From the human T2T-CHM13v2.0 reference genome, Homo sapiens, in assembly GCF_009914755.1 (NCBI RefSeq), contig NC_060937.1: a stretch of DNA of 64,000 nucleotides. One strand, given 5' to 3'. The notes under the pieces were generated by a model, which saw only the letters and a list, made by a program, of their open reading frames with translations, was not told the DNA's origin and did not search any database. Shown here piece after piece: positions 15,942-43,874 of the stretch. Each line of letters begins with the position of its first letter. Position 1 is the stretch's first letter. Made by a program: the position numbers and the translations under genes.

Positions 15942-15944
<3 letters not shown>

Positions 15945-15976
<32 letters not shown>
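15945..15976. repeat. (TG)n microsatellite (mirror (CA)n at ~53474-53505)
   Basis: Direct reading; same length in both arms, as the translated THTH run is identical. Confidence 0.95.
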
Positions 15977-15978
<2 letters not shown>

Positions 15979-18900: not shown

Positions 18901-21489
18901 AAAACCACCACATAAACCATAATATTGAATTCAGTAAAGTTTTTGATGTTAAAACAAGTGGAGAACCAACTAAAGAAATGAATTATTAATGTAATGAAAG
19001 TTTCTGACAGGTGGTAAAAGCCCTAGTGTTATGAAGATCAATGTACAGACATCCTTCAGATGTCAAATCTTGTTCCTAACAGAAACATAAACATGTTTGG
19101 GAAATATGTATTAAGGAACAAAAAATTACTTTATCCACATCTAGGCTTTAGAATATATCTTTTAGCTAAAAAACGAAAATATAGATAATACAATCTATAA
19201 TATGTTCACATAAAATAGGATTGTATTTTGTATTTTCATTGAATGTATTTTTATTTTATATTTTTCTCCATTTTAAAAGACACAAAAATACTCAACAAAA
19301 ATAAATTTAAAAAATATTTCCCAAAAGAAAGTTTAATAATAAATACTAGAAAACATATATAAGGCTTTTATTCCTATTTCAAAGCATTTTATGTTTTCAG
19401 GTTTAAAAAAAAGTCATAAAAAGTGTACATTTTTCCAGAATTTTTGAATTTGCACTTTTACAAGACTAGAATGGCATCCTTCATTAGAGTAATTTTACAT
19501 GGTTGAGATATTTGTTTAAAAAATTGAAGTTATAAAGAGCATTAGAAACAGCAATAACTCTTGATTAATATCCACAATCCTACTATCAACTTGTTAGTCT
19601 GGTAGATGAATCAGTAAAATTCAGAAGTTTTTATAAATTACTGGGAAGAAACCCAATTCTATTGCAAAGCAATAAAGAATTAGATTTAGTGATATTTTTA
19701 AAAAATAACTTTCCTGAGCCTTTTCAATATATCTTAAATGTGTTATTTAGCCCTTCCAATAAGCCCATTTGTAGATATTATCTTCATTTAGCTGTTATTA
19801 TAACAACTGTTAAAGTCATATTTAACATTACTGTCTTATTTCATCCTCACAGCATCTCAATGAGAGGATTGGTATTAATTTCCTCATCATTTGATTGACT
19901 GATAATCAGCTTTCATCATTTCATAGGTGAGAACACTGAGGCATAAAGAGGCTAGAAAACTTGCCTGTGTCACACAGCTAATTTTTGGCCACATAGGCTT
20001 GAAGTTCTGCCTAGGAATGACATTATTCTTCTCTGAATAGTAATCTTTACTTAGACTCTTAAATATCCTCCACAATTTTAAAAAGCATTTGCCTTAATCT
20101 CTTTCTCCTTCTTATCGCTCTATCCTTCCCCACTCCCCTTCTTTCTGTATGAATGGATAAGTCTGAGTTTGATTTTAGCACATTTAGCACTTTGAGTTAT
20201 CTTTATGACATGGAATACCTAGGAGTGTTTAGAATAAAGGATCAATAAACAAATATAATATCCTTCTGAGTTCTACTCACATTCTTTAGATACAAATGTC
20301 TAAGAACAAGTTTTGATGCCTGTCAATAGTTATGCCCTTCTGAGTTAGAAAGACGTAATATAATCAAATATTTTTTCATATATTTTATAAACTCAATACC
20401 AAGAACAAACAAATGAAAGAAAAGTTTATTAATATATCCTATCCTTATCCATGCATTGGATATTTTAAAATATACTCTTTTCTCATTTTAGACTACTTGC
20501 CCAGAAATATATCTATCTTCTAAAATTATATTCATAAGTAATTATTAACATACTTCAGGAACAAGGATCAAAGTATATCACCTTGTTTTCTGCTGAGAAG
20601 TAAGTCCTGAAAATGTAATGGTGGCATTCTAGTCCAGGAAGCAACGCTTCTGCTTTTTCCACAGTAAGCAGTTATCAGTATTTCTGAGCAGCCACAGTGA
20701 TTACAGACACACTCTGATAAAGGTTTCACTATTTTCAGACTCTGGCCTGATAAGTCAAGATATCGAGTTTTGTCAAACTGCTGAGATATTTAGAAAGTCA
20801 GCAATCAGATTCACTAAGTAATCCTTTATAATAGCAACAAGACTCCTAGGACACTTTCTTTTTTGAGTAGGTTTAGGTGAATCATCTGGTTTAGCTTGAC
20901 CTCTTGTCTTCTTGTACCAGCTAAGACAGATTCCTAATTTAAAAATACCTGGGGAGTAAAATCGGTAGCATCTGGAAGGGAAGGCTTTGTAGCATCTGGA
21001 GTGATGAGAGCTTTTGATCCCCATTTCCCTGTAGGTCTCTGACTTTGCAATTACATTTGAAGGACTTCTCTGTTGAATAATAGTCCCAGTCAAGGTGATA
21101 TAATCATAGACAGGGGGAGAGGAAACAAGGGAGGAATAAAAAACCAAAATCTTCGAATGGAGACTTTGATTTTCTTTGTTATTATAATACAATAAAATGA
21201 TTGTTTTTCCTGGCTTAAACACTCTTACTTATTTCAGTTAGGTGCCTTGACTCTTATTAGGCATTTCACAAATAATCTTTATCTGTTGTGTTTTTAAATT
21301 GTATAACCCCTGCCAAGTTGAAAGCACACACCTTAACAAAGAATTTAGGCAACTAAACCTTTCTAACAGCTTCATCAACCATGGAGGTTGGCCATTCTAG
21401 TCATTTCCACATTTGATTGCTTTATTTTATAATTATAGAAAAAGTTTCCGTTAATCATTGGCATGTTTTCAGTGACAAGTAGCAAGGAC

Positions 21490-22150
21490 AAAAATCAAAG
21501 GAAAAAAAAATGATGGGAAGGGCGTAGTGTACCCAGGGATTGCTTTACTGAGGAGCAGGTATGTGAACAAAGAACTGCAAGACGCCAGGTAGCTAGGCAG
21601 GTATATGTCTGGGAAATAAACTTTTGAGATGAAGAGAAGAGCAAATTCAAAGAACTGGAGGCAGAAGTGTGCCTGACATTTTTGAGAAAGATTGAGGTTA
21701 GTGAAACTGAGCCGAGTGAACAAGTGGCAGAATGGGAGGAATTGAGATAAAGGCTCGGGAGGAAACAAAAGCGCTGGATGTTCTGGGATCTTGTAAGGAC
21801 TGTGGCTTTTACTGTGAGAAGGTGTGAAGCAAAGGAGGGGCAAGATCTACTTTTGAAGAGAATCACTCAGACTGCTGGATGGAAAATAGACTGAGGAGAG
21901 GTGATAGCACAAAAGAAGAGTGACAGTTCAGAAGGCAATCAGTGACCCAGAGATGCTGGAGACTTGGGCCAAAGAAGTAGTAGCTGAAGTTTTGAGATGT
22001 AGATGGATTGTTGATATAATTTGGAATTTTCTATGAATATATGAATAGATTTGATGACCAACTAAATGTGGGGACACAAAGCCTAGGGTGATTCCAAGGT
22101 TTTTGGCCTGAGAAACTGGAACAATGAAGTTTCCATTTATTGAGATAATG
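21490..22150 (-). mobile_element. L2 fragment
   Basis: ggaggcagaagtgtgcctg, gtaaggactgtggcttttactgtgag, gattccaaggtttttggcctgagaaactgg and ttccatttattgagat are typical antisense L2 motifs. Confidence 0.8.
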
Positions 22151-22225
22151 TTGTTGGATTGTCCTAAAAATATACATTATCCATGGTGATTAAAATGATG
22201 CCGAGAAAACTGGTGCTTAAAATTA

Positions 22226-22520
<295 letters not shown>

Positions 22521-24111
22521 TTACTTTCACAAGTGTGTCTGTTAGCATTGAAGAAATAAGCCCCCTTGAGTGTGTTTTACCATGAGTGATAAATATTTTA
22601 TACTTGTATTTATTCGTAAAGCAACTCAAGACATGAATGTGTATTTTTTTCTAATAGAAAACAAAATATGACCTACCTCAGACAAATGTAAAATATAAGT
22701 TATCTGTGCTGTCTTTTGCATCTTTTTCTAGAGTTTTTTCAAAGAAACATTATGCTTGAAATGGACTTTTCTATAGCAGCTTATTTCTTTGTTTTATCTA
22801 GTGAAAATTAAGTTCAATATATATATTTGAATTGATAATACACATAAAACACTGTTTTAGGTGCCAGGTAAATTTTTGTTAAAGAAACCATTTAATCAAG
22901 TGTCCACTGTAATAGAAGCATAGATTAGGTAAGTATGACATTACATGTTTCTTGGATCCAAGAAATAGAAAAAATAAGACCTGCAGTATTCCGGTTCAAA
23001 GTATTCCTATTACAAACCTACTGACATAATGAACAGAGGACTTTATATGACAAGACTTCACCTTGATAGATACAGATCCATTTGTGGTCTCTTACACAGC
23101 AGTGTTCAATGACAATTTTGAACAATTTAAAAATCAGGCCTCATTATTACCTTCTGATTTTAAACAAGTAATTAAACTGCTTTCAGTTTTTATTTCTTCA
23201 GATGTAAAGAAAAGAAACTAAGGGATATCCAGTCAATAGAACAAATTGAACCAATATTAAAGGATTGTTTTCCCCATCTCATTTGTCTAATTTCAGATTA
23301 AAATACTGAAGCAAATAATGAAGGAAAATAAGTTTTAATACATATTTGCATCTGAGACTACCTAAGATGGGCTAATCAGCTACTCTGGATTGACCAATTC
23401 TTATTCCCAAGGTTTCTGGGAGCCTGACAAGACTTTTGGGCCAATGCTATGAAATATATGGAATAGAAACAAATAATGTTTTGTGATCATAGATCTGTGA
23501 GTTGTTTTGGGAGCAGACCATACCATCCTAGCTATTTATTAACAGTAATTGAATGTGTGATTTTAAACTTATGTTTAGTGAAGCCTGAAAAGTTTTGATA
23601 GATAAGGCTTGGTCACATAGCTGGAATGTGCTTACACAGCCAGCTTATATAAGAAATCAGGGCAGTCTTTGGACTTCCTGGTACAAAGTGCATTGCAGGT
23701 ACGCTGGTGATGGTTTCAGACATGGAGGTCCAGGAAACCCAACAGTATGAGGAAGAATACGTCTGTGCCTTAGCTGTCAGGACACATTTCAGTGCATATC
23801 CTTTTCCTGATACTGCTGTACCGAGTACCTTGCCTATATAGGAAAGCTGTTCCACAAGTATGAAACCTTGTGGGCCCAGTGATTTGCCTTATAGTCATTA
23901 ATGCACAATTAAAGCTAAAACCAAGGCAGGTAAATTCCAGGTTCCAGAAATAAAAATCGAATCTAAGTCAGAAGAGTAGGTAAAGCTAACATTTCTCTAG
24001 ATCTTAAGAATTGGACATGGGTTTCTGAAGTTTGAATGCCTCTTATGAGGAGAGAAAGAATGTAATTGTCCCACAGTCAGACATCATGGCTATGATTTTA
24101 GGATCCCATCC

Positions 24112-24575
24112 TGTAAGACAGTTGTCTGGATGGGCTTGGACCAAACCAGTTTTATTCCCTTTCTTTCTTGTAGTTCTCAAGAATAACTGTAGAATGTGCT
24201 GGGAATGCAACACCTTGAGATTATGGGAAGATGCCTGAAACAGCCCAGGATCTCTTCTAATTCCCCCTGGATATGGGATGACTTTTATTCTGGGGATCTC
24301 ATTGCCCCAGAATAAAAAACTTAGGATGGGCTGTTTTTCAGACTCCCTCAGCTACAGTGCAAGGGGGCACACACACAGGAGACTCCATCTGCCCCAAGCA
24401 GTGTTTCTGAAGCTTAGGGGACTGGCTCACATTGATTCTCAGGGTTCTGTTGTCCCTTTCTGCCTATCTGTAAGTATTAATAATAAACTCACTCCATGTA
24501 ACTTGTATACATGGGTGTTCTGTCTCACCAGACCCAGACAAGTTGGCAACCAGTGCACAGTGAACCTGCTTCACA
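24112..24575 (+). mobile_element. Solo ERV LTR (LTR47-like)
   Basis: TG...CA termini, 5-bp TSD catcc/catgc, AATAAA near 3' end, motif aataactgtagaatgtgctgggaatgcaaca; subfamily name from memory. Confidence 0.65.
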
Positions 24576-27500
24576 CATGCTGATTTGGCCTTTTATAGAG
24601 GAGAAAATATATGAACCCAGCAGCCACCCCAAAAATTGTCTGCTGAAACATCATGTTTCCAGATAAAAGAATCATTTAATGACTTGCAAGGTACTCTCAT
24701 TGTGTCTCAACTTCTCCACACTGACCATTGTAACTAGTTAGTATCTATTGTAATTGTCAGGATATCCTTCTGTTCCTTAAATATGCCACTCTGAATTTGA
24801 AGAAGAAAGTTTAAGGAAGAGGAAGAAGTGTTAACTTTATTTGTCCTGTGGTGTGTGGTGTGTGTATGTGTGCGTGTGTGTGTCTGCACACACAAGTGTG
24901 ATTGTCTATGTCTTGCTGAGTTTTACAGAGATTAATCTTTTGTGATCACCAGGTTGTATGGCAGAATTTGACACATGTTATTCTATTTAGCTGTTCTATG
25001 GTAACCTGGTGTGGTTAGTATAATCTCTATGTTAAAGATCAGTAAATGGAAGCAGACAGAATTTAAGAGGCACCTCACAGATGACATAACTTGTTAGTGA
25101 TTTGGCTATGACTGGGATCCAATTCCAAAGTTTTACTAATTTACCATTCTATTTAAGGATAGGAGGGAGTTACTCGAATCCATGTACTGGCTCAACAATA
25201 TTTTCAGAGAACTAATGTTGCTTCTGTTCTAAAACTGAAAAATCCAGTATGCAAAATATGGCAAATACATTGAAAAAGACACTGGAAATTAGCCAGTGAG
25301 TTTGAAGGATTGAAATGCTGTACCTTGTTTTAGTTAGGGGAGTATTGCTATTGCTATTTTGTTCATTTTTTTGAACTCAAAGATATTCTGTAGCTAGTTT
25401 TATTCTGTTGTTAAGACTGTAACAGAGCCAAAGAAGGAAAAAGCATACAGAGTGCTGCTTTGTTGTTTAAAATAATTCACTTTTAAATATTAGGGCAGAG
25501 AAAACAGGAGACATAGCCCTTTGGGTAAAAATAATCAATAAGAATTATACTTCCTTCATGGACAAGTGTGTAGATACTGAAAGTAGCCAGTTTAAATGAA
25601 TCATGGTGTCTAGGTTTTGCTCCTATGAATGACAAAGTCTGATTCTATGAGTAGTATTCCAATCTTTTAATTTTAAAAAATAACTATTTTAGCTCAAGAG
25701 GAAGGTATGTCAGTAGGACTGATGATCTTCCTATTTTCAACAGAATGATGAACCTCTAAAGTTGATTCAAGCTCTTGCACTCTTATTAAAAAGCTCTTGA
25801 CAAAAAGTACCAAGTTTTGAAGCAATCCTACCCTTATGGAGTGATTTAAGAATCTTGGTTTAGAATTATTGGATGCCTATTTTTAGAAGTTCCCTTCTCA
25901 TGTATCTTTATTGATTCAAAGTGTCATTACATTTCTGGAGCTGTAAGGAAATTGTCTGCTCACAATTCAAGGATTCAAGAATGTTCTACTACAGAAAAAA
26001 TCTTGGGTAGTTCAGCTTTTCATTTTCATTGGAACTGAGGGAAATTGCTCAAGTGAAATATAAAGTGCTGAGTTTAAAAAATAGCCTTAAGGTTTTACTA
26101 AGTAGACACTTCATGTATAGTTGACAGAGTTTCTAGGCAAATATTTAAGTTCATCTAACTACAGGTTATCTATAAGTGGGGAAGAAAGGGAGATGATTTT
26201 GTTTGTGCGTACAAGACAAACACAAAGTAAATATATATATATATTTCAATAAATTAATGAAAATAAATGGCAGAACAACATAAGCTGATAAACATCAATG
26301 CAGCATTATATATATTATCTTTCAAACATATGATCAAGGATGACATTGAATTTCTATAACAATTGCTCTAGCATGAGCTTTAGCTAACAAAATGCACACC
26401 TGCCATACTGGAGCAACCTGGGACCCACTGGTGCATATTGGCTAGATAACAGCCTTATTCATGGCCAAGTGAAGCAATGGTGAGATTAGAAATGCAGCCT
26501 CTATCACTATGCAGTGATAGACATAAAGAACCCTAACATAAATTTACAAATTGTTATGGCATCATTGTTATTAGCAGTGCAAAAAAGAAGTATACAACAC
26601 ATACCTGTGGTTTTAATTGCATTTTATATTTGAACAATTTGTCTATATTTTTCAATCATGTAACTAACAAAATACTTCTATTTCAGTAAATCAAAATGGA
26701 AAGAGGAGAGAATATATGGACAGAAATATTTTTACATTAGCACAAGAAGCTGCATGGCAGATTTAGAAAGAAGAGTGATTTCTCAGCAAAATACTAGTAT
26801 GGGCAACAAGGTGAGAATAAAAGCTTCAAAAAACTGGCAACTGCTTATGAAAACTGCTATGAGTTATGCAATAAGATTCAAAAGGTATTCTACATGCAAT
26901 AAAATTTTAAAATCTCTGATTGAAGGAGTGTGTTTTTGTGATATTTGAGTGAGCTGTCAACAAAGATGTAAGTACTCTACAGTAACTAAGCAGACAGTTA
27001 GAGGTTCACACACTTAAGGATGAGCAGCTCAGTTATACAAAAAAAAAGTCTAAGGACTGAGTAATTTTATAATATAGCTAGACTTCAGGTTTAGCAAGGA
27101 GCAAATAAAGCCATAAAAAGTTGATAGCTGGAGAGATTAAAGTTGGAGGCAGCAGGTTGTAGAAAAGAGAGCTGAGAAGTATAAATTTTTGAAAAGGACA
27201 GATAGAAAGTAATGTCAATGTGTTATCTAAGTGCTTATACTTACACCAACAAAGCTTGTTAATTTTAGGAAAAATATAAAAGTAGAGAAGTAAGTAATGG
27301 GTTAAGGTAATACCAGTAAGATGTAACAAATAAAGCTTGAAATGTAGTGTCCTAGTTCAATAAATACTCATTTCTAACTCACATAAAGACTGACTTCTAA
27401 ATCATTTACTGAGTTCAGGTGTCACATTTAATGTCACACCTAAAGATATCAAGTCTTGAATTCTATTTTTAGGAAAACTGACATCCTAATAGGGGATGGG

Positions 27501-28049
27501 TAAATAGCAAGTGTATTATAAATCAATTAGATTTAGAAATAGATAAAAACAAAAGATACAATAGGAAATAAACTAGGCAATTTCTGAACATTTAAATATA
27601 TTTACCTTGAAGAAAATATGCAAATTTTTGACATAGTATTGAGGGGAAAGTAAGTTTCCTTGTCATGAACAGATGTATCTGTGAATAGCCTGTGGTGAAA
27701 TCATGTGGCAAAAGGGGAATATGTTCTGACTGATGGGATATGCAGCAGCACAAGACAATTCTTTTTCCAGTCCCCTCTACTAGATGCCTCTACTCTCTCA
27801 TGGTTTTGCCTCTGAGAGAGATAGATCTGAAATAATAATAGTAGTTTAGAGTGAAATTAACTAATACCTAACTACAACTGCAACTAATACCCCAGATAGA
27901 GCTTCCTGAATGGAAAAAGTCAAGACATCCCCTAACACTTGGAGATAACAATTTATAAAATGATTTTCTCTACCCTAATAGAGAAACCTTACAACTTACC
28001 ACAACATTAATCAGACTTCTGTCTAATAACAGGGGATCTGAGTTGGAAT

Positions 28050-28938
28050 AACTGAGACTCAGACTTTTTAAATGTCTCTAGAGAAACTTCAGGACAAGAA
28101 ACAAAAGGCACTAAAAGGAAATGTTAGCCTTTGACACTTACAGCAACAACAAACAGTAAACACAGCCTAACTCTTAGATAAACATAAAACCTCACACTAA
28201 AGATCTATTTGCTTCAGTTCCTTTTACCAACACATCATGTTTAGCTTTCAACCACAAATTACAAGCACATTATGAGGCAAAAGAAAACACATAATGAAGC
28301 GATAAAGCAAGTATCAGAAACAGACTCAAATTAGATTTTGGAGTTATCAGACAGGTAATTTAAAATAACTATGATTAATATGTTAAAAGCTCTAACAGAA
28401 AAAGAGAACAACACACAGGAACAGATGGGTAATGAAATAAAGAGAAATGAAAAGTCTAAGAACGGATCAAAGGGAGATGCTAGAAGTCAAAAACACTGTA
28501 TCAGAAATAAACAATGCCTTTGACAGACTCATCAGGGAACAGAACATGGCTAAGGAAAAAATAATTAAGGTATGTCTAATAAAATTTCTCAGACTGATAA
28601 ACAGAGAATAAAATGAAAGAATTAAACAAATGAACAGAATATGTGAGAACAGCGGGCCAGTTAGAAAAGGTACCACAAATGCAAAATTAAACATCAGAAG
28701 GAGAAGAGAGAGGAAAAAAAAAACAAAAAACAGAAGAAATACTTGAGGTAATAATGACTGAAAATGTTCAACTGTGAATATGACTCAAAGCCATAGGTCC
28801 ACTAAACTAATAAAACACTAAGACGGTTAAACATTTTAAAACATTTTAAAAATCGAAACATGAGCATAACATACTCAAACTTGCAGAATTTCAAAGGGAA
28901 AAAGAAAATCTGAAAAAATTCAGAAGAAAAACACCTGT
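28050..28938 (+). mobile_element. Old L1M 5'/ORF1 fragment, ending abruptly at the cassette junction
   Basis: ttggagttatcagacagg, tttaaaataactatgattaatatgttaaaagctct, aaataaacaatgcctttgacagactcatcag. Confidence 0.75.
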
Positions 28939-29378
28939 AGTTCTGAGTCTTCTCTTTCATGTGGTTACTTTGGAATGTTCACGGCACATAATACAATCGG
29001 TATATTTACTGATTGTGTATTGGTGAATTGGTGCTGGCTCTCAGTTCCCGCCTCGCGGCGGGGGGGGCCTGACCACCCCTGCGATGGGTGTCCTAAGAGC
29101 CAGGGGGGGAAGAGGGGCTGGCTGTCAGTCCCCGCCTCCCGGGGGGTGCCTCCCGCCCCTACGATGGTGGTTCCAAGAGTCTGGGGGGGAAGAGGGGCTG
29201 GCTTTCAGTACCCGCCTCGCGGGGGGTGCCTCCCCCAGGTGCGATGGGGGTCCTAAGAGCCAGGGGGTGAAGAGGGGCTGGCTCTCTGTCCCCTCGTCGC
29301 GGGGGTTGCATCCCCCCCCTGTGATGGGGGTCCCAAGAGCCAGGGGGGGAAGAAGGGCTGGCTCTCAGTCCCCGCCTC

Positions 29379-29911
29379 ACTAGCAGGGGAGTTGCTGCCA
29401 AGGCCCTCAAACATGGGGGCCATCCTTTAGAAACCCTGTCTAGTTGTTTAGAGACATAGGCCACCGACCTCATCCAGGGCCCCACAGTTTGGGTTAAAAG
29501 TCCACCTGCCATCTTTTCTCTCTCTGACACATACAATGGAAAAGGCTTTGTCAGATCGGGTAACCCCAGGGCTGAAGCTGCCAGAAGTTTTTCCTTTAAC
29601 TCATGAAAGACTTGCTGTTGTTAGGATCCCCCTTCCAAAGGTTCCCGGTCCCCGACCCCTTTGTGACCTCATACAAAGGCTTGGCTTATACTGCAAAGTT
29701 TGGGATCCACAGTCTACAAAACCCCACAGCTCCTGAGAATTCTCTCGCCTGCCTTCGGCCCTTAGGCTCTGGTAGATTGCAAATAACATGCTTTCTTTCT
29801 GTTCCCGGGTGGCTTCGGACCCCTGTCGGATCGGAAATCCCAAGTAAGGTACCTGCCCTGGGCAGATTTGAGCTTTCTTCTTGGACACCTAATACCCACA
29901 GTCCTCCAGGT
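29379..29911 (-). mobile_element. HERV-E-like (class I) pol fragment, copy 1
   Basis: Minus ORFs [17 protein letters not shown] (RT) and LTQTVGPWMRSVAYVSKQLDRVSKGWPPCLRALAAT (tether/connection domain). Confidence 0.88.
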
Positions 29912-29977
29912 AGGTCCTAAAGATCTTGGGATCCGCGATGGGGGTCCTAAGGCAGGGGGGGAAGAGGGGCTGGCTCT

Positions 29978-30578
29978 CACCCACCCCAAAATGGGCGGCC
30001 TTTATGTTCAGGTTTTGCCCAAGAGTCAGCTTATTTGCTTCTTCTACTATCAGGGCAGTTGCTGCCATGGCCCTCAAACAGGGGGGCCATCCTTTAGATA
30101 CCCTGTCTAGGTGTTTAGAGACGTAGGCCACCGGCCTCATCCAGGGCCCCACAGTTTGGGTTAAAAGTCCAGCTGCCATGTTTTCTCTATCTGACGCATT
30201 GAATGGAAAAGGCTTTGTCAGATCCGGTAGCCTCAGGGCTGGGGCCTCCAGAAGTTTTTCCTTTAACTCAAGAAAGACTTGCTGTTGTTGGGATCCCGAT
30301 TCCATAGGTTCCCAGTCCCCGCCCACTTTGTGATCTCATACAAAGGCTTGGCTAATACTTCAAAGTTTGGGATGCACAGTCTACAAAATCCCACAGCCCC
30401 TAAGTATTCTCTCACATGCTTTCTGCCCTTAGGCTGAGGTAGATTGCAAATGACCTGCTTTCTTTCTGTTCCTGGGTGCCTTCGGACCCCTGTCGGATAG
30501 TAAATCCCAAGTAAGGTACCTGCCGTCAGCAGATTTGAGCTTTCTTCTTGGACACCTAATACCCACAGTCCTCCAGGT
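29978..30578 (-). mobile_element. HERV-E-like pol fragment, copy 2
   Basis: ELKEKLLEAPALRLPDLTKPF...GWPPCLRAMAATALIVEEANKLTLGQNLNIKA. Confidence 0.88.
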
Positions 30579-31206
30579 GGGTCCTAAAGTTCATAGGATC
30601 CGCGATGGGGGTCCCAAGCCAGGGAGGGACGAGGGGCTGGCTCTCAGTCCCCGCCTCGCGGGGGGGTGCCTCCCCCCCCCCTGCGATGGGGGTCCTAAGA
30701 GCCAGGGGGGAAGAGGGGATGGCTGTCAGTCCCTCCCTCGTGGGTGGTACCTCCGCCTTCTGCGATGGTGGTCCTAAGAGCCAGGGGGAGACGAGGGGCT
30801 GGCTCTCAGTCCCCGCTTCGCGAGGGGTGCCTCCCCCCCCCGCGATGGGGGTCCTAAGAGTCTGGGGGGAAAGAGGGGCTGGCTCTCAATCCCCGCCTCG
30901 CGGGGGTGCCTCCCCCAGGTGCTATGTGGGTCCTAAGAGCCAGGGGTGAAGAGGGGCTAGCTCTCTGTCCCCTCGTCACGGGGGTTGCATCACCCACCCT
31001 GCGATGGAGGTTCCAAGAGCCAAGGGGGTAAGAGGGGCTGGCTCTCAGTCCCTGCCTCGCGGGGGTTCCTCCCCCCCTGCGATGGGGGTCCCAAGAGCCA
31101 GGGGGGGAAGAGGGGCTGGCTCTCAGTCCCCGCCTCGCGGAGGGTGCCTCCCCCACCACTGCGATGGGGGTCCCAAGAGCCAGGGGGGGAAGAGGGTCTG
31201 GCTCTC

Positions 31207-31805
31207 CACCACCACAAAATGGGGGGCCTTTATGTTCAGGTTTTGCCCAAGAGTCAGCTTATTTGCTTCTTGTACTAGCAGGGCAGTTGCTGCCAAGGCC
31301 CTCAAACAGGGTGCCATCCTTTAGAAACCCTGTCTAGTTGTTCAGAGACGTAGGCCACCGGCCTCATCCAGGGCCCCACAGTTTGGGTTAAAAGTCCACC
31401 TGCCATCTTTTCTCTCTCTGACGCATACAATGGAAAAGGCTTTGTCAGATCGGATAGCCCCAGGGCTGAAGCTGCCAGAAGTTTTTCCTTTAACTCATGA
31501 AAGACTTGCTGTTGTTGGGATCCCCCTTCCAAAGGTTCCCAGTCCCCGCCCCCTTTGTGACATCATACAAAGTCTTGGCTTATACTGCAAAGTTTGGGAT
31601 CCACAGTCTACAAAACCCCACAGCTCCTGAGAATTCTCTTGCCTGCCTTCGGCTCTTAGGCTATAGTAGATTCCAAATAACCTGCTTTCTTTCTGTTCCC
31701 GGGTGGCTTCGGACCCCTGTCGGATCGGAAATCCCAAGTAAGGTACCTGCCGTCGGCAGATTTGAGCTTTCTCCTTGGACACCTAATACCCACAGTCCTC
31801 CAGGT
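31207..31805 (-). mobile_element. HERV-E-like pol fragment, copy 3
   Basis: SKEKAQICRRQVPYLGF; LGLSDLTKPFPLY; CLRALAATALLVQEANKLTLGQNLNIKAPH. Confidence 0.88.
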
Positions 31806-31871
31806 GGGTCCTAAGGATCTTAGGATCTGCGATGGGGGTCCTAAGGCAGGGGAGGAAGAGGGGCTGGCTCT

Positions 31872-32472
31872 CACTCACCCCAAAATGGGCAGCCTTTATG
31901 TTCAGGTTTTGCCCAAGAGTCAGCTTATTTGCTTCTTCTACTATCAGGGCAGTTGCTGCCACGGCCCTCAAACAGGGGAGCCATCCTTTTGAAACCCTGT
32001 GTAGGTGTTTAGAGACGTAGGCCACCGGCATCAGCCAGGGCCCCGGAGTTTGGGTTAAAAGTCCAGCTGCCATGTTTTCTCTATCTGACCCATTGAATGG
32101 AAAAGACTTTGTCAGATCGGGTAGCCCCAGGGCTGGGGCTGCCAGTAGTTTTTCCTTTAACTCATGAAAGACTTGCTTTTGTTGGGATCCTGATTCCGTA
32201 GGTTCCCGGTCCCCGCCCCCTTTGTGACCTCATACAAAGGCTTGGCTAATACTGCAAAGTTTGGGATGCACAGCCTATAAAACCCCGTAGCCCCTAAGAA
32301 ACCCTCACCTGCTTTCTGCCCTTAGGCTCCAGTAGATTGCAAATGACCTGCTTACTTTCTGTTCCCGGGCTGCGTTCTGACACCTGTCGGATAGTAAATC
32401 CCAAGTAAGGTACCAGCCGTCGGCAGATTTGAGCTTTCTTCTTGGACACCTATACCCACAGTCCTCCAGGTG
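31872..32472 (-). mobile_element. HERV-E-like pol fragment, copy 4
   Basis: PVAYVSKHLHRVSKGWLPCLRAVAATALIVEEANKLTLGQ; 1894 bp downstream of copy 2. Confidence 0.88.
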
Positions 32473-33894
32473 GGTCCTAAGGTTCATAGGATCCACGATC
32501 GGGGTCTCAAGCCAGGGGGTACAAGGGGCTTGCTCTCAGTCCCTGTCTCACGGGGGGTGCCTCCCCCCTTGCGATGGGGGTCCTAAGAGCCAGGGGGGAA
32601 GAGGGGATGGCTGTCAGTCCCTCCCTCGTGGGGGGTGCCTCCCCCTCCTGCGATGGTGGTCCTAAGAGCCAGGGGGGGAAGAGGGGCTGGCTCTCAGTCC
32701 CCGCCTCGCGGGGTGTGCCTCTCCCCCGGCGATGGGGGTCCTAAGAGCCCAGGGGGGGAAGAGGGGCTGGCTCTCACTACCCTCCTCACGGTGGGTGCCT
32801 CCCCGCCTGCGACTGTGGTCCTAAGAGCCAGGGTGGAAAGAGGGGCTAGCTCTGAGTTCCCGCCTCGCGGGGGGTGCCTCCCCACCCTGCGATGGGGGTT
32901 CCAAGTGTCAGGGGGGAAGAGGGGGTGGCTCTCACTCCTCGGCTCGCGGAGGCTGCCTCCCCTCACTGAGATGGGGGTCCTAAGAGCCAGTGGGGAAGAG
33001 GGGCTGGCTCTCAGTCCCTGCCTCGCGGGGGGTGCCTCCCGCCTCTGCGATGGTGGTCCTAAGAGCCAGGGGGGAAAGAGTGGCTGGCACTCAGTCCCGG
33101 CCTCGTGGGGGGTGCCTCCCCTCCTGCGACGCGGGTCCTAAGAGCCAGGGGTGGAAGAGGGGCTGGCTCTCACTACCCTCCTCGCAGTGGGTGCCTCCCT
33201 GCCTGCGATTGGGGTCCTAAGAGCCAGGAGGGAAAGAGGGGCTAGCTCTGAGTCCCCGCCTCGCGGGGGGTGCCTCCCCACCCTGCGATGGCGGTCCCAA
33301 GTGTCAGGGGGGAAGAGGGAGTGGCTGTCACTCCTCGGCTCGTGGGGGCTGCCTCCCCCCCCTGCGATGGGGGTCCTAAGAGCCAGGCGGGAAGAGGGGC
33401 TGGCTCTCAGTCCCTTCCTCGCGGGGGGTGCCTCCCGCCTCTGCGATGGGGGTCCTAAGAGCCAGGGGGGGAAGACGGGCTCGCTCTCAGTCGCCGCCTC
33501 GCGGGGGGTGCCTCCCGCCCTGCGATGGGGGTCCCAAGAGCCGGGGGGGAAGAGGGGCTGGCTCTCTGTACTCGCCTCTCGATGGGTGCCTCCCCGCCTG
33601 CGATTGGGGTCCTAAGAGCCAGGGGGGAAAGAGGGGCTAGCTCTGAGTCCCTGCCTCTCGGGGGGGTGCCTCCCCACCCTGCGATGGCGGTCCCAAGTGT
33701 CAGGGGGGGAAGAGGGGGTGGCTGTCACTCCTCGGCTCGCGGAGGCTGCCTCCCACCACTGCGATGGGGGTTCTAAGAGCCAGGGGGGAAGAGGGGCTGG
33801 TTCTCAGTCCCTGCCTCAGTGGGGGTGCCTCCCCCTCTGCGATGGGGGTCCTAAGAGCCAGCTGAGGAAGAGGGGCTGGCTCTCAGTTCCCGCC

Positions 33895-34453
33895 TTTTTT
33901 TTTTTTCTCAGTGTTTTAGACGCCCAGCTGCACAACTTGATTGCCTTACAAATGACCTGCTTCCAGGATGCGGAAATTCCTAATTTCTTCTGTGACCCTT
34001 CTCAACTCCCCCATCTTGCATGTTGTGACACCTTCACCAATAACATAATCATGTATTTCCCTGCTGTCATATTTGGTTTTCTTCCCATCTCTGGGACCCT
34101 TTTCTCTTACTATAAAATTGTTTCCTCCATTCTGAGTGTTTCATCATCACGTGGGCAGTATAAGGCCTTCTCCACCTGTGGGTCTCACCTGTCAGTTGTT
34201 TGCTGATTTTACGGAACGGGCGTTGGAGGGTACTTCAGTTCAGATGTGTCATCTTCCCCGAGAAAGGCTGCAGTGGCCTCAGTGATGTACACGGTGATCA
34301 CCCCATGCTGAACCCCTTCATCTACAGCCTGAGAAACAGGCATATTAAAAGTGTCCTGCGGCGGCCGCACAGCAGCACCGTCCAATCTCCGTATCTTCTT
34401 ATCTGTTCCATTCCTTTTGTAGTGTGGGTTAACAAAGGCAGCAAGGTCAAATA
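33895..34453 (+). pseudogene. OR7E156P: Olfactory receptor family 7E pseudogene, 3' half only (TM4-TM7)
   Basis: FFCDPSQL, SYYKIVSSIL, YKAFSTCGSHLSVVC then TGA at 34204-34206; frameshift before MLNPFIYSLRN. Family assignment is firm; the specific symbol comes from recalled locus context and is unverified. Confidence 0.8.
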
Positions 34454-34454
34454 A

Positions 34455-37150
34455 GAATGATATCACAGGGCGAACACCCAAAGTGATATTAGGAGTAATA
34501 CTCCCTAGGATATAGAATATACTGTCACAGAGTATACACAGATGGGGTATACCCACTGTGATATTAGAAGCAATATCTCCCTAATGTATGAGGAAAAATA
34601 TCACAGGGTGTGCACACTGTGTGATATGAGGAGTAATATTTACCCTGGATATTACGACTAATATCAAGGGTGTACATACACGGGGTACACGCACTGTGAT
34701 ATCAGGATTTGTATCTCCCTAGGATATTAAGAATACTATCACAGGGTATACACTATGTGTGTACATCCACTGTGATATTTGAAGTAATATCTCTCTATGA
34801 GATTGCAAATAACATCAAAGCGTGTACACCCCTGTGACACATTAGGAGTAACACCCTTCTAGGGTATTACAGATAATGTCACAGCGTGTACACCTCTGTG
34901 ACGTTTTGTACACACTTTGTGACATTAAAAGAAACATCCCCCTAGGATATTGTGAATAATAACACAGGAGGGGTACACACATGGTGTACACCGCCTGTGT
35001 CATCAGGAGTAACATTCCCCTAGGATATTATGAATAATATCACAGCAGGTGTACACACATGGTGTACGCCCCATGTGACATTCGGAAGAGCATGCCCCTA
35101 GGATATTAGGAATAGTATCACAGGCGTTGAATACGCATTTTTAATGTGTAATGTCACCCCCGGTGACATTAAAAATAACATCCCCCTTGGATATTATGAA
35201 TAATAGGACCGGGAGTACACCCCGTGTGACATTAGGAATAACACCTCCCGAGGATATAACGAATAATATCAGAGGGTGTCCATGCATTGTGACCTTAGTA
35301 GTAACATCTCTTTAGGATATTACAAATAGTATCACAGGGTGTACAGGCATTGTGACATTAGTAGTAACATCCCACTGGGATATGACGAGTCATATCACAG
35401 GGTGTACACCCCGGTGACAATAATAACAACATTCCCCTAGAATATTACGAATAATATCACAGGAGGTACAGCCCCTGTGATTTACAAGTAACATGTCTAT
35501 AGAATATTACAACTCATATCACTGTGTGACTCTGTGTACACCCCGTGTGACTTTAGCAGTAACATCCCACAAAACTATGATGAAAAATATCACAGGGTGA
35601 ACACCCCCTGTGACCTGAGGAATAACGTAGTTTTAGGATATTATGAATGATGTGACAAGGTGTACACACCCTGTGACGTTAGGAGCAATATCCGTCTAGG
35701 ATGTTAGGAAGACTATCACACGGAACACACCCCCTGTGACATTAGGATATGACAAATAATATCACAAGGTGTACACGCATCGTGACATTAGTGCTAATAT
35801 CCCTCTGGCACACTATGAATAATATCACAGGGTGTACATCCCTGTGACATTAGGAGTAACATCCCCCTAGAATAGTAAGAATAATAACACGGGGTGTACA
35901 CCCCCTGTGACATGAGGAGTATCATCTCCCTAGAATATTATGAACAATGTCACAGGGTGTTATCGTCTGTTCCAATAGGAGTATAGACCCCTGGGAAATT
36001 ATGAATACTATCACAGGGTGTACAGCCCTGTGACATTAGCAGTAACATCTTTCTAGAATATCACGAATAATAGCACAATGTGTACACCCCCTGTGTCATT
36101 AAAAGTGAAATTGCCGTGGGATATTACAAAATAGAACACAGGGAGGACACCCCGTGTGACATTAGAAGTAACATCCCCCGAGGATATAACCAATAAGATC
36201 AGAGAATGTACCTGCATTGGGACATCAGTAGTAACATCTCTTCAAGACAATACTAATAATATCAAAGGGTGTACACACATTGTGAAATTAGTAGTGAACT
36301 CCCGCTAGGATATTAGGAATTTTATGACAGGGTCTACAGGCCCTGTGACATTAGCAGTAACGTTTTCCTAGAAGATTACGAAGAATATTAAAGGGTGTAC
36401 AGGACCTGTGAATTACGAGTAACATTTCCATAGCATATTGCACGTAACATCACTGTGTGTACACGCCATGTGACATTAGGGGTAACATCCCACAAAATTA
36501 TAACGAATAATTTCACAAGCTGTGCACTCTCTGTGACATTAAAAGTAACACTTCCCTAGAATATGACGACAATATCACGGAGTGTACACCCTCTGTGATA
36601 TGAGGAGTGACATCTTATGAGGATAATACGAGTAATTTCACAAGGTGTACAAACTCTGACATAAGGGGTGACATCCCTCTAGGACATTATGGATAATATC
36701 AAAAGGAACATACCCCGTGTGACAATAAATGCAACCTCCCATTAGGAGAATAAGAAACACCACAAGGTGTACACACAATGTGACATTATTATTAAGGTAA
36801 AGCTAGGATATTGGGAATAACATCACAGTGTACAGAGTCCTGTGACATCAGGTTTAACATTCCCCTGCAAAATTACGAATAATACTGAAGGGTGTATACC
36901 CCCTGCGACTTTAGAAGCTGCATCTTGCTAGAATATGGAAGATAATGTCCCAGGGTGTGAACCGAGGGTGACAGTATAGAAAGGATCCTAGGAAAAATCC
37001 GGGAGTAATATCACCCCACTATCGCCCCCTGGATATGACCATCCACATCGCGGGGGGCACCCGCCCCCCTGCGATGGGGGTCCTAAGAGCCGGGGGGCGG
37101 AGAGGGGTTGGCTCTTACTCCCTACATTGCGGGTGGTGCCTCACCCCCCT
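34455..37150. repeat. AT-rich SATR1/SATR2-type satellite (~65-90 bp units), grading into the GC-rich unit at ~37040-37150
   Basis: Recurrent aatatcacagggtgtacacccctgtgacattaggagtaacatccccctaggatatt; this satellite type is known beside OR7E duplicons. Confidence 0.85.
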
Positions 37151-37601
37151 GCACTATTCACAATAGCAAAGACTTGGAACCAACCCAAATGTCCTTCAAT
37201 GATAGACTGGATTAAGAAAATGTGGCACATATACACTGTGGAATACTATGCAGCCATAAAAAGGATGAGTTCATGTCCTTTGTAAGGACATGGATGAAGC
37301 TGGAAACCGTCATTCTCAGCAAGCTATCACAGGGACAAAAAAAGCAAACGCCTCATGTTCTCCCTCATAGGTGAGAATTGAACAATGAGAACACTTGGAC
37401 ACAGGAAGGGGAACATCACATACTGGGGCCTGTCATGGAGTGGGGAGAGGGGAGAGGGATAGGATTAGGATATATACCTAATGTAAATGACGAGTTAATG
37501 GGTACAGCGGTGTTGGTATAACATGGGACATGTATACATATGCAACAAACTTGCACGTTGTGCTCATGTACCCTAGAACTTAAAGTATAACAAAAAAAAA
37601 T
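37151..37601 (+). mobile_element. L1PA 3' end, fused directly to the satellite with no TSD seen
   Basis: gcactattcacaatagcaaagacttggaaccaacccaaatg...ccctagaacttaaagtataa plus A tail. Confidence 0.93.
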
Positions 37602-38274
37602 AAATATATATATATATTTAAAATGAAGCTGGTTAGGTTTTAAAAGGCTCCTCAATGATAATTACTTATATAGCTGAAGAAATGGGAGACAAAAGGAGGG
37701 CTTCTCTGCCTCCCCAGGGTCTTGGTTTGCCTGGAGGATGGAAGGAAAATATAAGAAACACTTGCAGATAGCATACAGTCTGGCTTTGAATGATCAGATG
37801 TGAATATGTTTCTTGGGATTTGAGGGAGGTTGGACAAGGGGTAGGTGTGGAAGTGCAGAGTGAGTTGGAGAAAGAAGTCTGGCAAAGAAGTTGTAATGAC
37901 TCAGGAAAGGGAATAGGGTTGTCTCTTTCCCTATGGGTAGAGGTAGATATTTTAGGAAAAAAGAGAGAGAGAAAAAAAGGATAAAATTTTGTTATGATCC
38001 CCCCAAAACTTGTTATGTAAGATATATATCTACTGATAGGACATTTTGAAAATTAGTATCAGCTTTATATTTGGGCACATGATTTCACTGAGATGGTTCT
38101 TTGGCAGAGCAGATTAAAATGATGTTCCTGAAATGAAACTCGAGTCTCCAAAATAATTGGCTCATTTTAAGCAAAATATTATTGATGATCAACAGTGACT
38201 GGCACATAATAATTGTTTAAATATTTGTTGGCTAAGTCAGGGAATGAATGATATGCTTTGGCAATTACTGACAG

Positions 38275-38282
38275 TATATAAA
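38275..38282 (+). promoter_or_regulatory. TATA box of the KRTAP gene
   Basis: TATATAAA 86 bp upstream of the ATG. Candidate upstream AP-1 (TGACTCA, 37897-37903) and LEF/TCF (CTTTGAA, 37784-37790) sites are weaker calls. Confidence 0.75.
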
Positions 38283-38360
38283 GGTCTCAGGGAAGTAGAA
38301 GACGTCCACACCTCAGAAGCATCTTCTTGAAACCCATCTCAATTCTCTCCTCTTGACAAC

Positions 38361-38774
38361 ATGTGTTGCAACTACTACGGCAACTCCTGTGGCTATGGCT
38401 CCAGCTATGGCTGTGGCTATGGCTCCAGCTATGGCTGTGGCTATGGCTCTGGTTATGGCTATGGCTATGGCTCCAGCTATGGCTGTGGCTATGGAACTGG
38501 CTACAGCTGTGGCTATGGCTGTGGCTATGGCTCTGGTTATGGCTGTGGCTATGGCTCCAGCTATGGCTGTGGCTATGGAACTGGCTACAGCTGTGGCTAT
38601 GGCTCTGGCTACAGCTGTGGCTATGGCTCTGGCTCTGGCTGTGGCTATGGAACTGGCTTCGGCTGTGGGTATGGCTGTGGTTATGGAACTGGCTATGGCT
38701 GTGGATGTGGCTCTGGCTCTGGCTACTGTGGCTACCGGCCATTTTGCTTTAGAAGATGCTATTCTTCCTGCTAA
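38361..38774 (+). CDS. High-glycine/tyrosine keratin-associated protein, KRTAP21-1-like, 137 aa, single exon
   Basis: [15 protein letters not shown]-terminus and [22 protein letters not shown]-terminus match recalled KRTAP21-1; (GYGxxYxC)n core; true ATG (acaacATG), TAA, TATA box and AATAAA present. It is longer than the canonical gene and has no KRTAP neighbours in the window, so a paralog is likely. Confidence 0.88.
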
Positions 38775-39055
38775 AACATCACTGTCAGAGGACAATTTGC
38801 TTCTAAAATGACACGGCTAAAGATAATACTGATTCAAGGATTCATACTCCAAGATTTCTATATCCAAGAATTACATGCTTGACAGAGTCTTGGACCTCTA
38901 GCCTCACATTTCTTTGAATGAAATCATGGCCATAGGATCCACGGTGTCATCTGACTGTTTTCCAAATGTTATCTTTTGCTCCCTTAATCTCTGACTCTCT
39001 GTTATGACTGTGTTAATGATCATAACATCTACAATTGGGGAAGTCAATCATTTGT

Positions 39056-39061
39056 AATAAA
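39056..39061 (+). terminator. Polyadenylation signal of the KRTAP gene
   Basis: AATAAA ~280 bp after the stop codon. Confidence 0.65.
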
Positions 39062-39079
39062 AATGGTTCTTTATTCCAA

Positions 39080-39351
39080 AAAAAAATGTTTTAGTACAAA
39101 AGAGTCAAAAAGCTAAAATAAAATATAGTTTATAAAGCAAAAAATTATCAGTAAGCTAAGTTTAATGTATTATTGAAGAAATAAAATGTATTTTATACAT
39201 TTACCCTAATGCCTAATGTTTAAGACATCTACTGTAGTGTACAGTAATATCCCAGGCCTTCACATTCACTCACTAATCACTCACTGATCCACCCAGAACA
39301 ATTTTCAGCCCTGTAAGTGCCATTCGTGCTAAGTGGTCTATATAGGTACTG

Positions 39352-39385
<34 letters not shown>

Positions 39386-41510: not shown

Positions 41511-42638
<1,128 letters not shown>

Positions 42639-43872: not shown

Positions 43873-43874
<2 letters not shown>

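What the first reader, a model, noticed from the sequence alone, without database searches (positions are those of the whole stretch)
28980..29029. Two templated snippets from 32 kb away sit where the satellite/OR7E/KRTAP cassette begins
Seen: 28980-29012 (cacggcacataatacaatcggtatatttactga) is the reverse complement of 61081-61113 at 32/33 positions. That template straddles the outer end of the right arm: 13 bp lie inside the arm and 20 bp in the unique flank. Three bases later, 29016-29029 (tgtattggtgaatt) is an exact 14-bp reverse complement of 61849-61862. Both lie in the ~90 bp between a truncated L1 (ends ~28938) and the first satellite unit (29032). Established: short templated junction insertions copied from near another breakpoint are a signature of FoSTeS/MMBIR or polymerase-theta joining. 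Inference: arrival of the cassette and formation of the inverted duplication were one coupled event.
Basis: partly seen in the sequence, partly recalled or inferred. Interest (0 to 1): 0.85.

Follow-up and report, generated by a model that had tools for sequence, protein, structure and literature searches.

The report
Copied snippets mark one complex duplication
Short stretches copied from nearby breakpoints sit at both ends of a 21-kb duplicated block on human chromosome 13, indicating that this block and the inverted repeats behind a known human inversion polymorphism most likely arose together in one template-switching repair event.

Summary
28980-29012 is the reverse complement of 61113-61081 at 32 of 33 bases. 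Allowing 3 mismatches, the 33-mer occurs only at those two places in the 3.1-Gb genome. 29016-29029 is an exact reverse complement of 61862-61849. That 14-mer occurs 56 times genome-wide, so it counts mainly because it lies 736 bp from the first template.

Four new points:
- The "cassette" is the left 21.4 kb of a second inverted duplication. Its partner lies 62 kb to the right, outside the window.
- The other edge of that block lies 42 bp from the inner end of the right arm. Those 42 bp hold a third templated snippet, 25 bp copied from 20506-20530, and an 18-bp perfect palindrome.
- The 3-base filler fits a snap-back hairpin.
- The 10.6-kb arms are the inverted repeats of the published polymorphic inversion HsInv0340.

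In the published ancestral orientation, the arm copy, the three snippets and the block form one contiguous insert. A single template-switching event is the best reading, at about 0.7. The kind of event is known, and no outgroup genome could be checked.

The parts
7954..8339 (+). Old L1 fragment at the left edge of the insert. It is cut off at 8339, on its 3' side.
   Evidence: 11 of 11 fetched relatives align to about 7954-8335/8337 at 70-75% identity. Their downstream continuation matches nothing next to any breakpoint. That this is the reverse-transcriptase region of L1 is my recollection.
8340..18937 (-). Left arm A', an inverted copy of 50517-61093. It is one inverted repeat of inversion HsInv0340.
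   Evidence: Self-BLAST gives 99.47% over 10,598 columns, with 36 substitutions in 10,577 aligned sites. Only 2 copies exist in the genome. Aguado 2014 Table 1 lists segmental duplications of 10.6/10.6 kb.
8340..8352 (+). The 13 bases shared by the start of the left arm, the end of the 33-mer, and the reverse complement of 61081-61093.
   Evidence: Exact matches.
18938..28938 (.). Single-copy spacer Z. It is probably the natural neighbour of the arm sequence, read here in reverse, and carries two LINC00395 exons.
   Evidence: No second copy in the 214-kb self-BLAST. The 25-bp snippet shows copying that ran from the arm into Z on one strand. No dispersed repeat spans 18937|18938, so continuity could not be tested that way.
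20506..20530 (-). Template of the third snippet.
   Evidence: 25 of 25 exact reverse-complement match to 50494-50518. The 23-mer is exact at only these 2 places in the genome. Context.
27934..28938 (+). Old L1 fragment, cut off at about 28936-28938.
   Evidence: Alignments to 11 relatives end between 28721 and 28945. Six relatives stay alike with each other beyond that point while the window does not. That this is the ORF1 end region is my recollection.
28939..28979 (.). Orphan filler of 41 bases with no source found.
   Evidence: The 42-base pattern 28938-28979 is unique in the genome at up to 3 mismatches. No exact match longer than 13 bases in any sequence held.
28980..29012 (+). Templated snippet s1, 33 bases.
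   Evidence: 32 of 33 to the reverse complement of 61113-61081. 2 places in the genome.
29013..29016 (+). Filler TTG(T), explained as snap-back copying.
   Evidence: 29007-29016 also equals the + strand 61091-61100. 28993-29002 and 29007-29016 fold as a 10-bp stem with a 4-base loop. The 93-base junction folds with z -2.95; 1 of 200 shuffles folds as well.
29016..29029 (+). Templated snippet s2, 14 bases. The first 3 bases could be microhomology.
   Evidence: Exact reverse complement of 61862-61849. 56 places genome-wide. Null 37 of 20,000 near the first template.
29030..50474 (-). Block B': satellite, OR7E156P, KRTAP21-1-like gene and about 8 kb of low-copy flank. It is an inverted copy of window-scale 112550 to about 135800, outside the window.
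   Evidence: Extended self-BLAST: 33285-37620 at 98.46% and 38462-50474 at 99.02%. Homology ends at 50474. A third copy on the same chromosome spans the partner's edge, so the right-hand copy is the source.
50469..50486 (.). 18-bp perfect palindrome at the block's inner edge. Its first 6 bases belong to the block.
   Evidence: It is one of 6 perfect palindromes with arms of 8 or more in 64 kb, 3 of which are AT runs.
50475..50516 (.). The 42-bp junction between the block and the right arm: 3 bases, a 9-base fold-back, 7 orphan bases, then the 23-25-base snippet.
   Evidence: The fold of 50455-50530 has z -2.26; 6 of 200 shuffles fold as well.
50494..50518 (+). Templated snippet s3, 25 bases. 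The last 2 (TT) overlap the start of the right arm.
50517..61093 (+). Right arm A, the source copy, continuous with single-copy sequence to its right.
61081..61113 (-). Template of s1. It contains a small palindrome at 61081-61096 (6-bp stems, 4-base loop) across the arm edge at 61093|61094.
   Evidence: The hairpin alone is weak: z -1.58, and 15 of 200 shuffles fold as well.
61849..61862 (-). Template of s2, 736 bp beyond the s1 template, in single-copy sequence.

Best explanation
The two snippets are real templated junction insertions. With a third one that I found, they tie the 10.6-kb inverted arm copy (A') and the 21.4-kb block (B') together as one composite insert, made in one repair or replication event with repeated template switching.

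In the published ancestral ('Inv') orientation of HsInv0340, the sequence between the two truncated L1 copies (8339 and 28938) reads as one block. It holds, in order:
1. The inverted arm copy, copied from 61093 down to 50517.
2. A 1,568-bp skip forward on the same template strand, then 25 more bases (20506-20530).
3. Seven orphan bases and a palindromic fold-back.
4. A direct copy of the segment that starts 62 kb to the right of the arm and runs into its satellite.
5. Fourteen bases from 61849-61862.
6. A 4-base snap-back.
7. Thirty-three bases from 61081-61113.
8. Forty-one orphan bases.

This block sits beside the unbroken sequence Z-arm-flank.

Inferred mechanism: a break between two convergent L1 copies lost at least several kb. 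Both 3' ends were then extended on ectopic templates to the right of the break. The two extensions started within 20 bases of each other, at 61093 and 61113. Short low-processivity copies and snap-backs alternated with long break-induced-replication-like tracts, and the two extended ends were finally joined. Later recombination between the arms flipped the interior to give the present orientation.

The matches, their uniqueness and the adjacency are shown. The order of steps, the enzymes and the single-event claim are inferred.
For: - s1 is unique: 2 places in the genome at up to 3 mismatches. Its template lies in sequence that is single-copy to the right of 61093.
- s3 is a 25 of 25 exact match, and the 23-mer is exact at only 2 places in the genome. 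It abuts the arm with a 2-base overlap. Read from the arm, it continues on the same strand and in the same direction into Z.
- The block's homology ends at 50474, 42 bp from the arm start at 50517.
- s1 overlaps the first 13 bases of the arm copy. s2 lies 736 bp from the s1 template; the null is 37 of 20,000.
- An 18-bp perfect palindrome and a 10-bp-stem hairpin sit at the two junctions.
- A third copy at chr13:45.666 Mb is collinear with window-scale 110510-113004 across the partner's edge at 98.04%. So the right-hand block is the source and the left one the derived copy.
- The arms are the repeats of HsInv0340, and the paper infers 'Inv' as the ancestral orientation (Table 2; section 13).
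- Substitution divergence is alike: 36 of 10,577 for the arms and 26 of 8,130 for the block's low-copy part, Fisher p 0.90.
- Mismatches cluster next to junctions. Six changes specific to the derived block lie in its last 450 bp, against 0 specific to the source there (Poisson 6e-4). Three arm mismatches lie within 60 bp of 8340.
- Published work lists microhomology, templated insertions and raised point-mutation frequency as signatures of such junctions (passages of PMC4352052). It also describes short fold-back inverted insertions at breaks (abstract of PMC11724301).
Against: - No outgroup or other human haplotype could be examined, so one event against two is an argument from parsimony.
- The divergence clock is unreliable here. 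Chimpanzee shows both orientations by inverse PCR, so the repeats predate the human-chimpanzee split. The 0.34% arm divergence must then reflect gene conversion. Equal divergence therefore says little about timing.
- The mismatch clusters at the edges could be a conversion edge effect rather than error-prone synthesis.
- The cassette part of the block is more diverged: 26 of 3,701 substitutions across 33900-37600, and 45 of 4,000 across 38800-42800.
- The excess of 18 derived-copy changes over 8 source-copy changes is not significant (binomial p 0.076).
- s2 alone is weak: 585 of 20,000 random queries match somewhere in the window, and 13-base chance matches are common.
- Microhomology is absent or only 0-3 bases at several joins.
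- The 41-base and 7-base fillers have no source.
- The hairpin in the template is not significant.
Confidence: 0.7

Rival explanations
1. Two separate events. The arm copy formed first with a multi-part filler (s3, s2, s1 and the orphan bases). The 21.4-kb block was inserted later into that filler, or the order was the reverse.
For: The cassette part of the block is two to three times more diverged than the arms. Gene conversion makes the ages unreadable. The palindromic filler could be fragile.
Against: The second break would have to fall inside a filler of about 100 bp. s3 joins the arm copy to the block through only 7 bases and a fold-back. The low-copy part of the block has the same divergence as the arms.
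Confidence: 0.18
2. The 33-mer is a remnant of a once longer arm copy that reached past 61113 and was later broken up by further rearrangement. It is not a fresh templated insertion.
For: The 13 shared bases occur at 8340 and at 29000 as direct repeats around 20.6 kb. That resembles a staggered cut.
Against: The order is wrong for a simple remnant, because the 33-mer lies 20 kb to the right of the arm copy, with Z between them. Both of its edges are sharp. It would also need several breaks that coincide.
Confidence: 0.05
3. Chance matches or an assembly artefact.
For: The 14-mer has 56 copies genome-wide, and 2.9% of random queries match within the window.
Against: The 33-mer and the 25-mer are each exact or near-exact at only 2 places in 3.1 Gb. 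The hub's annotation places exon 1 of the curated transcript NR_002171.2 from 28995, so independent cDNA-based sequence covers part of s1 and all of s2. Inverse PCR in the literature confirms the repeat structure.
Confidence: 0.02

Closest known systems
Templated insertions at junctions of complex rearrangements formed by replicative template switching (FoSTeS/MMBIR), as described for PLP1 and MECP2 duplication-inverted triplication structures
   Same: Short inserts are copied from nearby sequence in cis. There are several switches in a row, inverted copies, little microhomology, and point changes near junctions. These signatures are listed in PMC4352052 (passages read).
   Different: This is a fixed or near-fixed ancient germline product, not a patient allele. 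The templates lie at or near the other breakpoints of the same structure, and two long tracts of 10.6 and 21.4 kb are joined head to tail in one insert. The enzymes are unknown.
Polymerase-theta-type end joining with snap-back and in-trans templated extension
   Same: The inserts are 14-33 bases long. A 4-base snap-back sits on a 6-bp palindrome and a 9-base fold-back forms an 18-bp palindrome. Orphan bases alternate with templated bases. The three modes are named in the abstract of PMC4912351 (search listing only). Fold-back insertions of about 5-34 bp at breaks in yeast are described in the abstract of PMC11724301.
   Different: The templates are 30-32 kb from the junction in which they sit. 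The event also made tracts of 10-21 kb, which I recall to be beyond what this polymerase makes.
HsInv0340, a polymorphic human inversion mediated by 10.6-kb inverted segmental duplications (Aguado et al. 2014, PMC3961182; Giner-Delgado et al. 2019, PMC6748972)
   Same: Same chromosome, same repeat size (10.6/10.6 kb) and same genes: OR7E156P lies inside and LINC00395 is truncated. The hg18 breakpoint intervals are mirror-symmetric in arms of the size and spacing seen here. That follows from my own arithmetic.
   Different: The passages I read concern orientation, frequency and gene effects. They say nothing about how the repeats arose, about the second duplication, or about the junction snippets. 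I did not open the supplements.

Membership tests
Templated junction insertion (template-switch signature) | The insert is identical or nearly identical to another sequence, with sharp edges and no flanking homology. | tested here: met
   s1 32 of 33, s2 14 of 14, s3 25 of 25. The flanks differ at once on both sides.
Templated junction insertion (template-switch signature) | The source is not a dispersed repeat. | tested here: met
   s1 occurs at 2 places at up to 3 mismatches. The s3 23-mer is exact at 2 places, and at 6 places with up to 2 mismatches against 3 for the control. s2 occurs at 56 places, so for s2 alone this is not met.
Templated junction insertion (template-switch signature) | The template lies in cis near another breakpoint of the same rearrangement. 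| tested here: met
   The s1 template spans the arm edge at 61093|61094. The s2 template starts 736 bp past the end of the s1 template, 755 bp from the arm edge. The s3 template is 1,568 bp from the arm/Z join.
Templated junction insertion (template-switch signature) | Microhomology at the switch points. | tested here: inconclusive
   2 bases (TT) at s3|arm, up to 3 (TGT) at snap-back|s2, a 6-bp palindrome at s1|snap-back, and none seen at 8339|8340 or 28979|28980.
Templated junction insertion (template-switch signature) | Raised point-mutation density next to junctions on the new copy. | tested here: inconclusive
   Six changes specific to the derived copy against 0 specific to the source in the last 450 bp. 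Three arm mismatches lie within 60 bp of 8340. A gene-conversion edge effect is an equally good cause, given.
Polymerase-theta-mediated end joining | Dependence on the polymerase. | not testable with these tools
   Sequence alone cannot show which enzyme acted.
Polymerase-theta-mediated end joining | The template lies within a short distance of the same break end. | tested here: not met
   For s1, s2 and s3 the templates are 30-32 kb from the junction that holds them. Only the 4-base and 9-base fold-backs are local.
Inverted repeats of HsInv0340 | Inverted segmental duplications of 10.6 kb on chromosome 13 that flank OR7E156P and cut LINC00395 when flipped. | tested here: met
   Arms of 10,598 and 10,577 bases. 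Gene positions come from the hub's table. Aguado 2014 Tables 1 and 2 were read.
   2 places in the genome.

The most novel reading that the evidence does not exclude
The locus preserves a base-level record of both ends of one chromosome break priming on the same 33-base patch of an ectopic donor. One end started the 10.6-kb inverted copy at 61093. The other end copied 61113-61081 on the same template strand, as if both had annealed to one exposed single-stranded patch, before it went on to copy 21 kb from 62 kb away. In this reading one chromoanasynthesis-like event in an ape ancestor created three things at once: the inverted repeats of a recurrent inversion that is still polymorphic in humans and chimpanzees, a second 21-kb repeat pair, and the exon arrangement of the testis lncRNA LINC00395.
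Probability: 0.3. Interest if true: 0.6.

Novelty: new member of a known kind. Interest (0 to 1): 0.45.

Why it matters
How the inverted segmental duplications that drive recurrent human inversions first arise is rarely visible, because their edges are usually eroded or lie in repeats. Here three genome-unique snippets and two fold-backs survive at the edges. They link two repeat pairs to one origin. They also give a clear prediction for ape assemblies: all pieces present together or all absent.

The junction has functional neighbours:
- The curated OR7E156P transcript starts inside the 33-mer, at 28995.
- LINC00395 has exons in the block, in Z and in the arm copy, with the rest of the gene reaching beyond the window's left edge into the left flank.
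- That gene can therefore exist only in the 'Std' state of the structure. The published inversion breaks it.

Tried and rejected
- Dispersed-repeat origin of the 33-mer: rejected.
- Source for the 41 orphan bases: none found in the genome at up to 3 mismatches, nor in any held sequence beyond 11-13-base chance words.
- Continuity of the L1 cut at 8339 with Z, or with any other breakpoint: not found. The same holds for the L1 cut at 28938.
- A repeat spanning 18937|18938, to test natural continuity: none exists.
- Reading the structure as a simple inversion with duplicated ends (staggered breaks): I worked through the three orientation states reachable by recombination between the repeat pairs, and none fits.
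- Dating by divergence: abandoned after the literature showed the repeats in chimpanzee.
- First sensitive BLAST of breakpoint flanks against the 214-kb region: no hits.
- Literature searches on the two pseudogene names gave only cancer and expression papers.
- Searches for 'LINC00395' and for 'OR7E', 'segmental duplication', 'inverted', '13q21' gave the inversion papers. No paper I read describes the junction snippets or the second duplication.
- Supplements of those papers were not opened, and bioRxiv supplements are closed. They may hold breakpoint or ancestral-state detail.

Full report
**Observation**

- 28980-29012 is the reverse complement of 61113-61081 at 32 of 33 bases.
- The one mismatch is at 28999. 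It is a CpG site and corresponds to 61094, the first base outside the right arm.
- 29016-29029 is an exact reverse complement of 61862-61849.
- Self-BLAST gives the arms as 8340-18937 and 61093-50517, 99.47% identical over 10,598 columns. The template therefore straddles the arm edge, 13 bases inside and 20 outside.
- The old L1 to the left stops resembling its relatives at about 28936-28938.
- Tandem Repeats Finder starts the 80-bp GC-rich satellite at 29033.

**Is it more than chance?**

The whole assembly could be searched.
- The 33-mer with up to 3 mismatches occurs at two places in 3.117 Gb, itself and the template. The reversed control gave 0.
- A 97-base BLAST-type search of 28939-29035 gave the same two places.
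- The sequence to the right of 61093 is single-copy. The arm part has exactly two copies. The other 38 of 40 listed hits fall on a dispersed repeat at 60021-60663.
- The 14-mer is much weaker. It occurs at 56 places genome-wide, against 30 for the reversed control.
- In a null test, 585 of 20,000 random 19-base queries had an exact match of 14 or more somewhere in the window. Only 37 of 20,000 had one within 1 kb of the first template. Thirteen-base chance matches are common.
- The 14-mer therefore counts only through its position and orientation beside the first template.
- The 42 bases 28938-28979 are unique in the genome at up to 3 mismatches.
- The search tool warns that it scores only its best candidates.

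**What the surroundings show**

I fetched 50 kb to the left and 100 kb to the right of the window and repeated the self-comparison.
- The "cassette" is not a lone insertion. About 29030-50474 is the left copy (B') of a second inverted duplication. Its partner (B) lies at window-scale 112550 to about 136250.
- Identity is 98.46% over 33285-37620 and 99.02% over 38462-50474.
- The satellite/OR7E part has at least a dozen relatives on other chromosomes at 89-96% identity.
- 42400-50474 has only three copies: B', B at 99%, and a third copy D at chr13:45.668 Mb at 98%.
- D is collinear with window-scale 110510-113004, across the edge of B at 112550, at 98.04% identity. The flank-to-B continuity is therefore ancestral, and B' is the derived copy.
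- B' begins inside the satellite. In B the satellite runs on to a truncated L1 at about 136253.

**The other edge of the block**

B' stops matching B at 50474, and the right arm starts at 50517. The 42 bases between them consist of:
1. three bases;
2. nine bases that, with the last six bases of B' and those three, form an 18-bp perfect palindrome at 50469-50486. It is one of only six perfect palindromes with arms of 8 or more in the window, three of which are AT runs;
3. seven orphan bases;
4. 23 bases that are an exact reverse complement of 20530-20508 in the spacer Z.

With the first two bases of the arm, the match is 25 of 25. The 23-mer is exact at only these two places in the genome. With up to 2 mismatches there are six places, against three for the control.

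Read outward from the arm, this snippet lies on the same strand and in the same direction as a copy that ran down the arm to 50517 and on into Z, skipping 18938-20505, which is 1,568 bases. So the sequence beyond the inner end of the arm copy is again arm-neighbour sequence. That sequence is then tied to the block by seven bases and a fold-back.

**The three-base filler**

29007-29016 also matches the + strand at 61091-61100. The template carries a small palindrome, with 6-bp stems and a 4-base loop, at 61081-61096 across the arm edge. In the junction, 28993-29002 and 29007-29016 fold as a 10-bp stem. The 93-base junction has z -2.95, and 1 of 200 shuffles folds as well. The simplest reading is a 4-base snap-back after the 33-base copy. 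Its last three bases (TGT) then serve as microhomology for the 14-base copy. The hairpin in the template alone is not significant (z -1.58).

**Literature**

Searching 'LINC00395' led to Aguado et al. 2014 (PMC3961182; Tables 1 and 2, section 13 and passages read).
- HsInv0340 on chromosome 13 is a validated polymorphic inversion between inverted segmental duplications of 10.6/10.6 kb.
- OR7E156P lies inside it, and LINC00395 is truncated by it.
- Its frequency is 0.01 in CEU.
- Both orientations are seen in chimpanzee by inverse PCR. Gorilla shows 'Inv', in disagreement with the gorGor3 assembly.
- The authors infer 'Inv' as the ancestral orientation.
- Giner-Delgado et al. 2019 (PMC6748972, passages) and Puig et al. 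2015 (PMC4576756, passages) repeat the gene effect.

By my own arithmetic, the hg18 breakpoint intervals are mirror-symmetric in arms of the size and spacing seen here. LINC00395 is intact in the hub's annotation, so this window is the 'Std' state.

Two consequences follow.
- Recombination between the arms flips the interior without changing any junction sequence. "Reverse complement" for s1, s2 and the block therefore describes this haplotype only.
- The repeats predate the human-chimpanzee split. The 0.34% arm divergence must then have been held down by gene conversion.

**Reconstruction (inferred)**

In the 'Inv' orientation, Z, the arm, the flank and B form one unbroken stretch. Everything between 8339 and 28938 becomes a single composite insert. 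It holds, in order:
1. the inverted arm copy;
2. the 25-base continuation;
3. seven bases;
4. the palindrome;
5. a direct copy of B;
6. the 14 bases;
7. the snap-back;
8. the 33 bases;
9. the 41 orphan bases.

The insert lies between two old L1 copies that face each other, each lacking its 3' part. L1 insertions normally keep their 3' ends (recalled knowledge). This implies that several kb were deleted at the recipient site.

The two syntheses started within 20 bases of each other on the same template strand, one at 61093 and the other at 61113.

This pattern of short templated pieces, fold-backs and orphan bases alternating with long tracts matches what the literature ascribes to replicative template switching (PMC4352052, passages). 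It also matches fold-back or templated insertion at breaks (PMC11724301, abstract; PMC4912351, search listing only). Which enzymes acted cannot be told from sequence.

**Timing evidence and its limits**

| Comparison | Substitutions | Divergence |
|---|---|---|
| Arms A'/A | 36 of 10,577 | 0.340% |
| Low-copy part of B'/B, 42300-50474 | 26 of 8,130 | 0.320% |
| Cassette part, 33900-37600 | 26 of 3,701 | 0.70% |
| Cassette part, 38800-42800 | 45 of 4,000 | 1.1% |

- The first two rows do not differ (Fisher p 0.90).
- The cassette part is also about twice as diverged from D: 96% identity against 98% for the flank.
- With D as outgroup, 18 changes are specific to B' and 8 to B (binomial p 0.076).
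- Six of the B'-specific changes, and none of the B-specific ones, lie in the last 450 bp next to the 42-bp junction (Poisson 6e-4, a post hoc test).
- Three arm mismatches lie within 60 bp of 8340.
- These patterns fit error-prone synthesis starting at the junctions. They also fit weaker gene conversion at the edges of homology. Because the repeats are known to be old, I give the equal divergence little weight.

**Verdict**

There are three corrections: what the cassette is, the orientation, and the existence of a third snippet. A single complex event has confidence of about 0.7. Two events that reuse the same filler have about 0.18.

The arms and the inversion are already in print. In the passages and listings I read, the origin of the arms, the second repeat pair and the junction anatomy were not described. 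Supplements were not opened. This is a well-preserved new example of a known kind of event, of moderate interest.

Noticed in passing
G000 chr13:45666301-45676500 (L042, L043) and chr13:45681972-45684850: A third copy (D) of the block's low-copy flank, at 98% identity, extends past the edge of B. In D the OR7E part matches on the opposite relative strand to the flank part, so D carries an internal inversion or rearrangement relative to B and B'.
   Followed up: partly
window 28995-29909 and 29469-29578, 20949-21069, 18611-18642: By the hub's table, exon 1 of the curated OR7E156P transcript starts inside the 33-mer. LINC00395 starts on the other strand in the block, about 470 bp away, and has exons in Z and the arm copy, with the rest of the gene reaching into the left flank beyond the window. 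The rearranged structure thus supplies a divergent promoter region and a gene that spans three junctions. The published inversion breaks that gene.
   Followed up: partly
window-scale 136253-136700 (L017): At the outer end of the right-hand block, the satellite abuts a younger-looking L1 that is cut off on its 3' side. The satellite/OR7E unit was therefore itself inserted into an L1 at that place.
   Followed up: no
window 34200-37100: The OR7E part has at least a dozen near-full-length relatives at 89-96% identity on chromosomes 2, 3, 4, 8, 9, 10, 13 and 14, and many older ones at 64-84%. It is a dispersed duplicon.
   Followed up: no
window 29033-33895: The satellite has an 80-bp unit with higher-order periods of 159, 317 and 396 bp. 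It is interleaved with 0.6-1.9-kb repeated blocks. The left copy's array is about 4.9 kb and the right copy's about 7.1 kb.
   Followed up: no
window 40800-41800: Twenty substitutions between the two block copies fall in this 1 kb, the densest stretch of the comparison. The cause was not examined.
   Followed up: no
window 22948-22965: An 18-bp perfect palindrome that is not an AT run, inside Z and away from any junction.
   Followed up: no
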